Positions 12,001 to 15,000 of a DNA stretch of 64,000 bases are shown piece after piece (positions within the stretch are counted from its first letter, which is position 1; each line of letters opens with the position of its first letter). Made by a program: the position numbers. Origin of the DNA: Podarcis tiliguerta (Eukaryota); assembly GCA_965153285.1 (NCBI GenBank), contig OZ229123.1. The stretch is one strand, 5' to 3'.

Positions 12001-15000
12001 ATAACCTTCATCTGCCATTCTTCCAGCGTGGGTAATTCTTGCGTCTTCCAATACTGTGCGATGAGTACTCTTGCTGCTGTTGTAGCGTACATAAAAAATG
12101 TCCTGTCCTTTGCCTGAACCTGTTGGTTGACCATACCCAGGAGAAAGGCTTCTTTCTAAATGTGTATTTAAACACCTTTTTCAATTCATTATATATCATC
12201 TCCCAGAAGGACTTAATCCTTGGGCATGTCCACCAAAGGTGGAAAAAAGTACCTTCAGATTCTTTACACTTCCAACATTTATTATCGGGCATATAGTAGA
12301 TTTTTGCTAGCTTGACTGGTGTCATGTACCATCTGTAAATCATTTTCATTATATTTTCTCTTAGGGCATTACATGCCGTAAACTTGTCTACGTCCATACT
12401 ACCCGGCCATAAAGTCTACGGCCATACTACCCTGAACACGCCCGATCTCGTCAGAAAGTTCTTCCTAATGTTTGGCCAGAATCTGCTTTCTTGTAATTTC
12501 AATCCATTGGTTCAGGCCCTATCCTTCAGAGCAGCAAAAAACAAGTTTGCCCCAACCTCCATGTGACAGGCTTTCAGATATTTCAACATAGCTACCACAT
12601 GGTGTCACAGTACGATCCCCAACAATGGGTAGCAATCGAGTGCAGACTGTCACAAAGAGAGGTCCCAAAGGCCAGTCTCCAGCCTATCACAAATAAAAAC
12701 TCAAAAGCTGTCCACTCCTGGCTTAACAGCAACTTCTCATGCCTCAAACTGGAACCAGACATGCAAGGAGGTAAATATTCCTCATTTCTTTTTAACCACC
12801 CGCTCAACTCCAAGGATAGGTAACATACCTTTGTTTGATTCCTCCATGGCAGCCTTTATCAGAGCCAAGATTTCAACGCTATCACCAATCCTTGCATAGT
12901 AAGAGCAGTCATGGCCAAGGGCATCCACCAAAGTGACGTCCGCACCATTTTTGAGCAAAACTTCCACAGCATCCTTGCAGCCATATTCACAGCCTAACAT
13001 CAGAGATGTCCTGAGGATGGAAGAAGAAGCCACATGGGAACATGAGGAGTCTTGTGGAGATGGCACATGCAATGGTGGGCTCTGTGGAACAATCACTATG
13101 CTTTTTCTTTTCATCCGCTTGCATTAATATCCCCAACTCTGCAAAACTGCGGGCAAAGGGGCTCCCAATATGCAAACAGGCGCAATAAAACAGTTCACAC
13201 AACAAACCAGGCATGTGGTAATGTGTAGTCAGTGTGGCATAATGGTTGGAGACCAGAGTTTGAATCCCCACTCAGCCACAAAGCTCACTGGGTGGCCTTG
13301 GGCCAGAAACCATCTCTTAGCCTAACCAATCTCACAGGGTTGTTGTGAGAATTAAATGGGCAGGTGGAGAACCATGTACACCACCTTGAGCTCCTTAGAA
13401 GAAAAGGTGGTATATGCATGTAATAAATAGTAGTACAAAATGAAAAATGCACCTGAAAAATTTCCATCAACTCAAAAACTCTCTCACATTCCATTGGTCT
13501 AATACTCCTACAGTAGATCATCCCACAAATGATCACAATCAGATTTTTCTTTTCTTCTTTTTCACAACACGTTTGAGACTTGAGATGCTTTTTTATCTGA
13601 AATGCTATCTGCTATTTATTTACCAGTGGCTTGTTGACAGAGGTATCCTTGTTTAAGCAGCTGTAGTTTGAACAAACCACCATTTTCTACACTGAACCAC
13701 AACGATAAACTATGGTTTGTTCCAACCAGGAATGGAACCTTTAAACCTCTTCCCCCTTGGCCACAGAGGGATGCGGGAAGAGCACAGAAGTCCAAGATTC
13801 ATCCAGGCTCATGTACATAATAATAAACCATGGTTTGCGGTGACATCTGAACCAGGCCAGGTTATCTGTCAATTGTCAAACTGATGATGCTGTATTAGTA
13901 AATAAATAAATGAAGCAGTCAGAATATTGCTATCTTTGAAGAAATTCCACCACTTCGGATCAACACACCCCAAGCTTGTGTCCAACAGCTTCATTGTTTG
14001 AATCCCCAAAGAGTGTTCTTTGGAAAGCATACAGACACATCACCCACGGGGGGCTAAATGGATGCATTACCGGTTCTGTTTGTCTCTTGCATTGACATCA
14101 GCGCCCCTGTCGAGCAGAAGTTGGCATATGGCTGGACGGCACATCTGAGTGGCCAGCACCAGAGGCGTCCTCCCATCCTAGAGAGAAGGGGCAGGAAAAC
14201 ATTACAAAGGAGGGGTAAAATGAACTTGACCAATCCTGGGGAAGAACCCTGAAAGGGGCCTGCATGATACTTACTGCATCTCTGGCATTCACCAAGGCTC
14301 CATGGTCACACAGTAACTGGATGCTGGATGAACAATCTGACATCGCTTTGGGAGACAGAAGGACATCACATCATTAGTAAATGGGTCACTTCGCTACCGG
14401 TGGGCTATTTATATATTGTCAGATTTCTGTGAAAGGCTGCGCCTTTAAGATCTAGAAGCCACAACCGTTCTAATGACAAATGTCCAACCAGGGAACAGCA
14501 ATTAAAAAGGGCCAATATGCCACTATCTTCCATGCTTTACTCATTGCACCTGAACTCCAGCCCTGCAAGAAAAGCCTGTGTGTTGTTAGTGGCTCACCTA
14601 ACCCAACTACACCTTTATCAGTTGCCTGAGGCACAGAGATAGTGTGGAAGAGAACCTAGTCTCTCCCTAAAAGCTTCTCCTAACTGGTGGTCTGGAAGAG
14701 GAACATCGATCACTGGAGGGGGTAATAGGATTGTTTTTATCGTGCATTTTGTGTTCTCATTTTGAATTTTTATGTTGGGAACAACGCTATGATCTTTGGA
14801 CAAAGGGCAGTATACAACTTTAATAAACAAATATTGAAATAAGAAGTTTGCAGCCAGCCCTTCCCAATCTGCGGGGCGTCCAGATGTGCGTCATATGATG
14901 CTGGAGCTGGTGGGAGTCATAGTCTAAAACATCGAGACAACAAATTGGGAGAGGCTGTCCCAGCCACATGTGGAAATTGAGCAGCTATTCATATGCCTTG

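What the first reader, a model, noticed from the sequence alone, without database searches (positions are those of the whole stretch)
12386..12466. 5S rRNA captured in inverted orientation at an L1 5' junction: twin priming in trans on a cellular RNA
Seen: within one TSD pair lie a minus-strand L1 and, at its 5' end, a plus-strand 5S 5' fragment (12414-12452) preceded by stuttered restarts (12386-12404 and GGCCATA at 12405-12411). The 5S piece stops where 5S continues TCTGA and the TSD begins TCAGA, a 4/5 microhomology. Known: small-RNA/L1 template-switch chimeras are normally co-directional, and twin priming normally inverts the L1's own RNA. Inference: the second-strand nick primed reverse transcription on a different RNA (5S or a 5S-headed SINE), and the two cDNAs were then joined with slippage.
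Basis: partly seen in the sequence, partly recalled or inferred. Interest (0 to 1): 0.7.

Follow-up and report, generated by a model that had tools for sequence, protein, structure and literature searches.

The report
Inverted 5S fragment capping lizard L1
A shortened L1 jumping gene in a wall-lizard-type genome carries a backwards 38-base piece of 5S ribosomal RNA at its front end inside a single insertion scar, which is real but belongs to a kind of L1 by-product already described in mammals.

Summary
A perfect 16-nt target-site duplication (11461-11476 and 12451-12466) encloses a 9-nt poly-T, a 900-nt minus-strand 5'-truncated L1, 28 nt of reiterated 5S 5'-end pieces, and a plus-strand 5S fragment that starts at 5S nucleotide 1. 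The L1 is the end of ORF2 plus the 3' UTR, and its nearest relatives are Podarcis L1 ORF2 proteins. The 5S fragment breaks at nt 38/39, in hairpin loop C, where 2 nt (4 of 5) are shared with the duplication.

The L1 family does not contain this segment: 0 of 41 related ORF2 proteins carry it, and they read ..LWTTGM|KFTAC.. across the break.

The second-strand 3' end primes reverse transcription on a 5S RNA, and the two cDNAs are joined after abortive restarts.

It is not new, however. Doucet et al. 2015 proposed this twin-priming model for inverted snRNA/L1 chimeras. Law and Burns 2026 report that human 5S/L1 chimeras are typically antisense, start at 5S nt 1 at the L1 junction, and are truncated in loop C.

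This is therefore a new member of a known kind, in a lizard. The source RNA (5S rRNA or a 5S-headed SINE) and the orthologous empty site could not be tested. A second L1 sits at the homologous site of a paralogous repeat; this is unexplained.

The parts
11461..11476 (.). Left copy of the 16-nt target-site duplication (TCAGAAAGTTCTTCCT). Its 3' end on the + strand is the first-strand (L1) priming end.
   Evidence: 16/16 identical to 12451-12466 (D3, 36). 0 of 30 shuffles gave a 16/16 pair.
11477..11485 (-). Poly(A) tail of the L1, read as 9 T on the + strand. It abuts the left TSD.
   Evidence: Sequence read directly.
11486..11876 (-). L1 3' UTR.
   Evidence: It lies between the ORF2 stop (11877-11879) and the tail. 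11608-11944 is 67% identical over 346 nt to the other L1 3' end at 42433-42762.
11877..12385 (-). C-terminal about 170 codons of L1 ORF2, including the CCHC zinc knuckle region, with the stop at 11877-11879. One frameshift lies near 12134-12152. The 5' truncation point is at 12385.
   Evidence: tblastn of P0010 (1246 aa, with RVT_1 and Exo_endo_phos domains) aligns residues 1070-1159 and 1156-1243 to 12412-12134 and 12152-11889. P0017 aligns from residue 1075 at 12385. zf-RVT scores E = 0.001, below its cutoff.
12386..12404 (+). First partial 5S copy: 5S nt 1-19 with one mismatch (T at 12393).
   Evidence: 18/19 identical to 12414-12432 (D5). It is not L1: 0 of 41 related ORF2 proteins carry the peptide it would encode.
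12405..12413 (+). Second partial copy, GGCCATA (5S nt 7-13; 8 nt if the C at 12404 is counted), followed by AA with no assignable template.
   Evidence: CGGCCATA at 12404-12411 equals 12419-12426 (D18).
12414..12450 (+). 5S fragment, nt 1-37, antisense to the L1. The next two bases (12451-12452, TC) could belong either to 5S nt 38-39 or to the TSD.
   Evidence: Rfam 5S_rRNA model positions 1-40 align to 12414-12453 (17.9 bits, E 0.14, 3'-cut). The Rfam structure line puts positions 35-40 in a hairpin loop. The 13-mer at 12440-12452 lies inside published 5S primers. There is no other 5S-like copy in the window.
12451..12466 (.). Right copy of the TSD. Its complement's 3' end (..TTTCTGA-3' on the minus strand) is the inferred primer for the 5S cDNA.

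Best explanation
This is one L1 retrotransposition event in a lacertid (Podarcis-type) genome that produced an inverted 5S/L1 chimera by twin priming in trans.

Shown:
- A single 16-nt TSD pair encloses everything.
- The L1 poly(A) abuts the left TSD.
- In L1 orientation the break reads CATT/AGGAAG.
- The L1 is cut off at ORF2 residue about 1075.
- The 5S piece is antisense to the L1 and complete at its 5' end, with nt 1 facing the L1.
- The 5S piece is cut at nt 38/39, inside hairpin loop C and directly against the right TSD. It shares TC there (4 of 5 nt).

Inferred:
1. The L1 endonuclease nicked the + strand after ..TTCTTCCT, and L1 RNA was copied from that end.
2. The second nick, 16 nt away on the other strand, left the 3' end ..TTTCTGA. 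This end annealed weakly to the exposed loop C of a 5S RNA and was extended to the RNA's 5' end. The RNA was either 5S rRNA or a Pol III transcript with a 5S head.
3. The two cDNA 3' ends were then joined without useful homology. The polymerase twice began copying at the terminus that corresponds to 5S nt 1, with one aborted 19-nt copy, a 7-8-nt slip and two untemplated A. This left the reiterated 5S 5'-end pieces.

Whether the L1 reverse transcriptase (end-to-end template jumping) or a repair polymerase made the restarts cannot be told from the sequence. The insert is a dead by-product with no indicated function. It lies about 365 nt downstream of an ankyrin-repeat exon-like ORF on the same strand.
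For: - Single-event architecture: the TSD is 16/16 identical, and 0 of 30 shuffles reproduce it.
- L1 identity and break point: 41 proteins hit at E <= 1e-3 out of 48 candidates (31 named Podarcis muralis, 4 P. lilfordi, 6 unnamed). Homology starts at K of KFTACNAL, which is 12385.
- The segment is not part of the L1 family. Of the 41 proteins, 32 contain KFT[AS]C, and 30 of these 32 have LWxxxx directly before it. 0 of 41 carry the peptide that the 5S-like filler would encode.
- 5S identity, start at nt 1 and break in loop C.
- The fragment is 5'-complete and 3'-truncated. This is the reverse of ordinary target-primed copies and is what internal priming followed by run-off gives.
- Two of the three 5S pieces start exactly at nt 1. 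That requires a molecule with an end there, either the 5' end of a sense 5S transcript or the 3' end of its full cDNA.
- The same architecture and mechanism are published for human snRNA/L1 chimeras (Doucet 2015) and 5S/L1 chimeras (Law and Burns 2026).
Against: - The microhomology at the priming site is weak: 2 contiguous nt, 4 of 5. It does not exceed chance.
- The break at nt 38/39 is not at the modal human position 46, although it is in the same loop.
- The endonuclease site is only consensus-like: TT/AGGA against TT/AAAA as quoted.
- The Rfam match is below the gathering score (17.9 against 38 bits).
- No orthologous or paralogous clean empty site was available. The only full paralogue (copy B) is itself interrupted at the same point.
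- Simultaneous arrival therefore rests on the TSD alone.
- The direction of synthesis of the stutter pieces, and the enzyme responsible, are not determinable.
Confidence: 0.62

Rival explanations
1. Capture by repair. A pre-formed 5S cDNA or DNA fragment, not primed by this target end, was ligated or copied into the gap between the L1 cDNA and the downstream target end by end joining. The reiterated 19-nt and 7-8-nt pieces would then be templated insertions of the microhomology-mediated end-joining type.
For: The stutter consists of short direct copies of sequence within 30 nt of the junction, plus 2 untemplated nt. The junction to the L1 is blunt, and the junction to the TSD has only 2 contiguous shared nt. 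Recalled, not tested here: such patterns are typical of polymerase-theta joining. The literature search was read as a listing only.
Against: It needs a free 5S cDNA whose one end is exactly nt 1 and whose other end happens to fall in loop C, next to a target end with matching TC..GA. Priming from that target end explains both facts at once. The published human cases show the same recurrent geometry.
Confidence: 0.15
2. Ordinary co-directional template switch. The reverse transcriptase copying L1 RNA jumped to a second template that carried 5S sequence in antisense. This could be a Pol II transcript containing an inverted 5S pseudogene or an inverted 5S-headed SINE. The end was then attached by microhomology.
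For: Template-switch chimeras with many RNAs are well documented. 5S-headed SINEs exist in squamates: 5S-Sauria in Anolis and SINE-1_Pmo in python. Transcripts with inverted copies are therefore conceivable.
Against: Copying would have to begin exactly at the complement of 5S nt 1 on two separate occasions (12386 and 12414). An embedded antisense copy has no end there. No other 5S-like sequence occurs in the 64-kb window, so there is no sign of an abundant 5S-headed SINE here.
Confidence: 0.12
3. Two-step or inherited origin. Either the 5S block was already inside the progenitor L1, or it arrived at the L1 5' junction in a separate event.
For: This cannot be excluded directly, because no orthologous locus and no L1 family DNA covering this region was available.
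Against: 0 of 41 related ORF2 proteins carry the block, and they read straight through the break point. The block sits inside an intact 16/16 TSD and has no tail or TSD of its own. A 5'-complete, 3'-cut, tailless 38-nt piece is not what an independent retro-insertion looks like.
Confidence: 0.06
4. Chance resemblance to 5S.
For: The Rfam score is below gathering, with E = 0.14 over all families.
Against: The hypothesis named one family in advance, so the correction for 4227 families overstates E. The alignment starts at model position 1. A 13-mer is shared with published 5S primers. The 5'-end piece is reiterated.
Confidence: 0.01

Closest known systems
Human antisense 5S rRNA/LINE-1 chimeric insertions (Law and Burns, Cell Genomics 2026, PMC13174262; sections 10, 17 and 18 read)
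   Same: A 5S segment antisense to a 5'-truncated L1. The start of 5S faces the L1 junction. The 5S is 3'-truncated in loop C. The TSD falls within the reported 7-17 nt range. The endonuclease site is consensus-like. Twin priming is proposed as the cause.
   Different: The host is a lacertid lizard and the L1 is a Podarcis-type family. The break is at nt 38/39 rather than the modal 46. Reiterated partial 5S 5'-end copies lie at the L1/5S joint. The text I read does not mention such copies, and Table S2 could not be opened.
[quoted passage not shown]
   Same: The small RNA is 3'-truncated and in inverse orientation. TSDs are present. The cleavage site fits L1 only when read in L1 orientation. 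There is complementarity between the small RNA and the target at the junction. Truncation falls in a single-stranded loop.
   Different: The RNA here is 5S, not an snRNA. That paper's lizard (Anolis) cases were co-directional U6 chimeras with L1, L2 and RTE.
[quoted passage not shown]
   Same: The second-strand 3' end primes a second reverse transcription, which gives an inverted 5' segment inside one TSD pair.
   Different: The inverted segment is normally the L1's own upstream sequence. Here it is a different RNA. A possible 8-nt cis example sits at the other L1 in this window (42423-42430).
Co-directional U6/L1 chimeras formed by template switch or RtcB ligation (Moldovan et al. 2019, PMC6789731, one passage read; Law and Burns 2026)
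   Same: A small Pol III RNA is joined to a 5'-truncated L1 inside one TSD pair.
   Different: Those chimeras are in sense orientation and usually carry a full-length small RNA. Here the piece is antisense and 3'-truncated.

Membership tests
Inverted small-RNA/L1 chimera (twin priming in trans) | A 5'-truncated L1 with its poly(A) abutting a TSD, and a break that fits the L1 endonuclease only in L1 orientation | tested here: met
   There is a 9-nt tail at 11477-11485 next to the TSD. In L1 orientation the site reads CATT/AGGAAG, against TT/AAAA as quoted. In 5S orientation it reads ..ACTA/TCAG. The fit is consensus-like, not perfect.
Inverted small-RNA/L1 chimera (twin priming in trans) | The small-RNA piece lies at the L1 5' end, inside the same TSD pair, in opposite orientation | tested here: met
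Inverted small-RNA/L1 chimera (twin priming in trans) | The small RNA is 5'-complete and 3'-truncated, with the break in a single-stranded loop | tested here: met
   Rfam model positions 1-40 align. The structure line marks positions 35-40 as hairpin loop, and the break is at 38/39.
Inverted small-RNA/L1 chimera (twin priming in trans) | Complementarity between the small RNA and the target end at the junction | tested here: inconclusive
   TC is shared, and TCTGA faces TCAGA. That is 2 contiguous nt, which is within chance.
Inverted small-RNA/L1 chimera (twin priming in trans) | Both parts are present or absent together at orthologous loci | not testable with these tools
Classical L1 twin-priming inversion | The inverted segment derives from the same L1 RNA | tested here: not met
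   0 of 41 related ORF2 proteins contain the segment, and it aligns to 5S instead.
Template-switch / RNA-ligation chimera (U6/L1 type) | The small RNA is in the same orientation as the L1 | tested here: not met
   5S is on the + strand and L1 on the minus strand.
L1-clade LINE | ORF2 with an APE-type endonuclease, a reverse transcriptase and a C-terminal zinc knuckle, plus a poly(A) tail and a TSD of about 16 nt | tested here: met
   The fragment covers only the last about 170 residues. It is 82-91% identical to full-length proteins that carry Exo_endo_phos and RVT_1. zf-RVT scores E = 0.001, below its cutoff.
5S rRNA (Rfam RF00001) | Score at or above the family's gathering threshold over the whole model | tested here: not met
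   17.9 against 38 bits, with only positions 1-40 of 120 present. It is a fragment, not a gene.
5S-headed SINE (SINE3, e.g. 5S-Sauria) | A 5S head followed by a SINE body and a LINE-derived tail, or diagnostic head substitutions | not testable with these tools
   The fragment ends at nt 38/39. No SINE or lizard 5S reference sequence was available. The family exists in Anolis and python. No second copy occurs in the window.

The most novel reading that the evidence does not exclude
The locus records repeated end-to-end jumps of the polymerase onto the terminus of a completed 5S cDNA. It also lies at a reusable insertion hot spot. Two different L1s, in opposite orientations, used the same + strand break (..TTCTTCCT|AATG) and the same 16-nt stagger in two paralogous copies of an older repeat. 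Each carries a product of second-strand priming at its 5' junction: 5S in trans here, and 8 nt of L1 in cis at 42423-42430. If this is general, second-strand cleavage position and second-strand priming in lizard L1s would be dictated by the target sequence and would be much more frequent than in mammals.
Probability: 0.12. Interest if true: 0.5.

Novelty: new member of a known kind. Interest (0 to 1): 0.27.

Why it matters
It extends the inverted 5S/L1 chimera beyond mammals to a squamate L1 family. That class of chimera was catalogued in the human genome only recently. The extension supports the idea that priming from the second-strand end on abundant structured RNAs is a general property of L1-type integration. 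The reiterated 5'-end copies give a rare base-level record of how the two cDNAs are joined. On its own, a single locus does not open a new question.

Tried and rejected
- Rfam scans of the whole window and of 12200-12650 did not report 5S. The match appeared only when the stretch ended at the break, which allows a 3'-cut alignment.
- I looked for a second L1 copy covering the break point, to read the family's DNA there and score microhomology at the L1/5S joint. None is in the window, so only protein-level constraints are available.
- In the L1 frame the filler reads LWPGSMDVD, against the family's LWTTGM. BLAST joins them with a gap. I considered that the filler might be diverged L1 and rejected it. 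In register the bases do not match what the conserved W, T, G and M codons require, and the block is an 18/19 copy of the neighbouring 5S. The antisense of the W-T codons must read GTCCA, and the single mismatch in the first partial copy creates GTCCA. This could reflect L1 templating but is untestable here.
- A clean paralogous empty site was not found. Copy B is interrupted at the same point, and copy C loses homology there.
- ARAGORN found no tRNA genes.
- Buzdin 2003 and Garcia-Perez 2007 are not held in the library.
- I found no report of an antisense 5S/L1 chimera in a squamate in the listings. These were keyword searches of an open-access library only.
Supplementary Table S2 of Law and Burns, which lists the individual 5S/L1 loci, could not be opened. 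It might show other stuttered junctions or breaks at nt 38-39.
- The window is not human, since its nearest relatives are Podarcis L1s. It contains no N.
The one exon-like ORF was searched alone.

Full report
**What is there**

Read on the + strand, the locus has this order:
- left flank;
- TCAGAAAGTTCTTCCT (11461-11476);
- nine T (11477-11485);
- 900 nt of antisense L1 (11486-12385);
- GTCTACGTCCATACTACCC (12386-12404);
- GGCCATA (12405-12411);
- AA (12412-12413);
- a 5S-like run from 12414 that ends ..GATCTCG at 12450;
- the same 16-mer again (12451-12466);
- right flank.

The two 16-mers are identical (D3, 36). In 30 shuffles of 11400-12520, 0 gave any 16/16 pair, and 0 gave a 19-nt pair with at most 1 mismatch within 60 nt. 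The window has no N.

**The L1**

The minus strand encodes the end of an L1 ORF2. A search with the 91-residue translation of 12143-12415 gave 41 proteins at E <= 1e-3 out of 48 candidates. Of these, 31 are named Podarcis muralis, 4 P. lilfordi and 6 are unnamed. The best are 88-91% identical. Full-length members carry Exo_endo_phos and RVT_1 domains.

tblastn places P0010 residues 1070-1159 and 1156-1243 on 12412-12134 and 11889-12152. The overlap marks one frameshift. The stop codon is at 11877-11879.

The window is therefore from a lacertid lizard, or something very close, and is not human.

Ungapped homology starts at K of KFTACNAL, which is 12385. Of the 41 proteins, 32 contain KFT[AS]C. 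Thirty of these 32 have LWxxxx directly before it, typically LWTTGM. None of the 41 carries the peptide that the 5S-like block would encode.

**The 5S piece**

Rfam does not report 5S in the whole-window scan or in a 451-nt scan. When the stretch ends at 12453, 12414-12453 aligns to 5S_rRNA model positions 1-40 of 120. The score is 17.9 bits (gathering 38) and E = 0.14 over 4227 families.

- The alignment starts at model position 1.
- The structure line places positions 35-40 in a hairpin loop.
- The 13-mer at 12440-12452 occurs in 77 papers. In the 3 papers I opened it lies within 5S primers.

From memory only, the fragment differs from mammalian 5S at two positions. No other 5S-like sequence occurs in the window.

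**The stutter**

12386-12404 is an 18/19 copy of 12414-12432. CGGCCATA at 12404-12411 is an 8/8 copy of 12419-12426 (D5, D18). In 5S numbering the block reads 1-19, then 7-13, then AA, then 1-38/39. Two of the three pieces begin at nt 1.

**Mechanism**

The poly(A) next to the left TSD places the first nick on the + strand after ..TTCTTCCT. In L1 orientation this reads CATT/AGGAAG, which is consensus-like against the TT/AAAA quoted.

The second nick, 16 nt away, leaves the minus-strand 3' end ..TTTCTGA. Directly attached to that end on the minus strand is the complement of 5S nt 38 to 1.

A piece that is complete at its 5' end and cut internally is the signature of internal priming followed by run-off. 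The repeated starts at nt 1 need a molecule that ends there. A sense 5S transcript, or its full cDNA, has such an end. An embedded antisense copy does not.

I therefore favour twin priming in trans (0.62) over three alternatives:
- capture of a pre-made 5S cDNA by end joining (0.15);
- a template switch onto an antisense 5S-bearing RNA (0.12);
- a two-step or inherited origin (0.06).

The restarts can be read in either direction of synthesis. They can be assigned either to the L1 enzyme or to a repair polymerase, and the sequence does not decide. The TC microhomology is consistent with the model but is not evidence for it.

**What is known**

Doucet et al. 2015 (passages) described inverted, 3'-truncated U5, U1, U2 and U6 pieces at L1 5' ends. 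They reported TSDs, an L1-type cleavage site only in L1 orientation, junction complementarity, and breaks in a single-stranded loop. [quoted passage not shown]

Law and Burns 2026 (sections 10, 17 and 18) list 27 human 5S/L1 chimeras:
- they are typically antisense;
- the 5S start lies at the L1 junction;
- they are truncated at 46 or 90 (loops C and D);
- 20 of 27 have TSDs of 7-17 bp;
- 14 of 27 lie at the endonuclease motif;
- antisense bias is attributed to twin priming.

Moldovan et al. 2019 note that 5S and other small RNAs in chimeras tend to be 3'-truncated (one passage).

The finding is thus a new member of a known kind. My keyword searches (listings only) turned up no squamate example. 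The stutter is not mentioned in the text I read, and the supplementary tables were closed.

**Source RNA**

5S-headed SINEs exist in squamates: 5S-Sauria in Anolis and SINE-1_Pmo in python. A 38-nt head fragment cannot distinguish a SINE transcript from 5S rRNA. The absence of any other 5S-like copy in 64 kb argues weakly for rRNA.

**Context and side observations**

The target is an older interspersed repeat with three copies in the window.

The only other L1 in the window lies on the + strand at 42423-42827. It sits in copy B of that repeat at the homologous point, with its own perfect 16-nt TSD (42407-42422 and 42828-42843). It has the opposite orientation but uses the same + strand break and the same stagger.

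The 5' junction of this second L1 begins CCGTCTCT. This is the reverse complement of the L1 bases that precede the homologous point in the first L1, so it may be an 8-nt cis twin priming.

Copy C loses homology to both other copies exactly at the left edge of the TSD position.

This coincidence is unexplained and could not be tested without the genome.

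Noticed in passing
window 42407-42843: A second 5'-truncated L1 (+ strand, 42423-42827, ORF2 end plus 3' UTR, A8 tail) sits in a paralogous copy of the same target repeat at the homologous position. It has its own perfect 16-nt TSD (CAAGGAGGTTCTTCCT, 42407-42422 and 42828-42843). Its orientation is opposite to the L1 of the finding, but it uses the same + strand break before AATG and the same 16-nt stagger. These are the only two L1s of this kind found in the 64 kb. 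This may be an insertion hot spot.
   Followed up: partly
window 42423-42430: The 5' junction of that second L1 starts with CCGTCTCT. This is the reverse complement of AGAGACGG, which the first L1 carries immediately upstream of and overlapping the point where the second L1's sense sequence begins. It is a possible 8-nt inverted piece, that is, mini twin priming in cis or snap-back. An 8-mer could still be chance.
   Followed up: partly
window 46867-46983 (minus strand): A third copy of the target repeat loses homology to both other copies exactly at the left edge of the TSD position. No right half lies within 43000-48000. A different repeat follows.
   Followed up: partly
window 12785-13123 (minus strand): An exon-like ORF with an ankyrin repeat (Pfam Ank_2 E = 4.7e-07, Ank E = 1.3e-04) ends at a GTATGT donor-like site at about 12829. 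The L1/5S insert lies about 365 nt downstream on the same strand, probably in an intron.
   Followed up: partly
window 8038-8108 (-) and 17513-17570 (+): Two tRNA-model matches sit just above the Rfam gathering score (30.7 and 29.7 bits against 29). ARAGORN does not call either a tRNA gene. They are probably tRNA-derived SINE heads.
   Followed up: no
window 13220-13410: By eye, a SINE-like repeat lies next to the ankyrin exon. The family was not determined.
   Followed up: no
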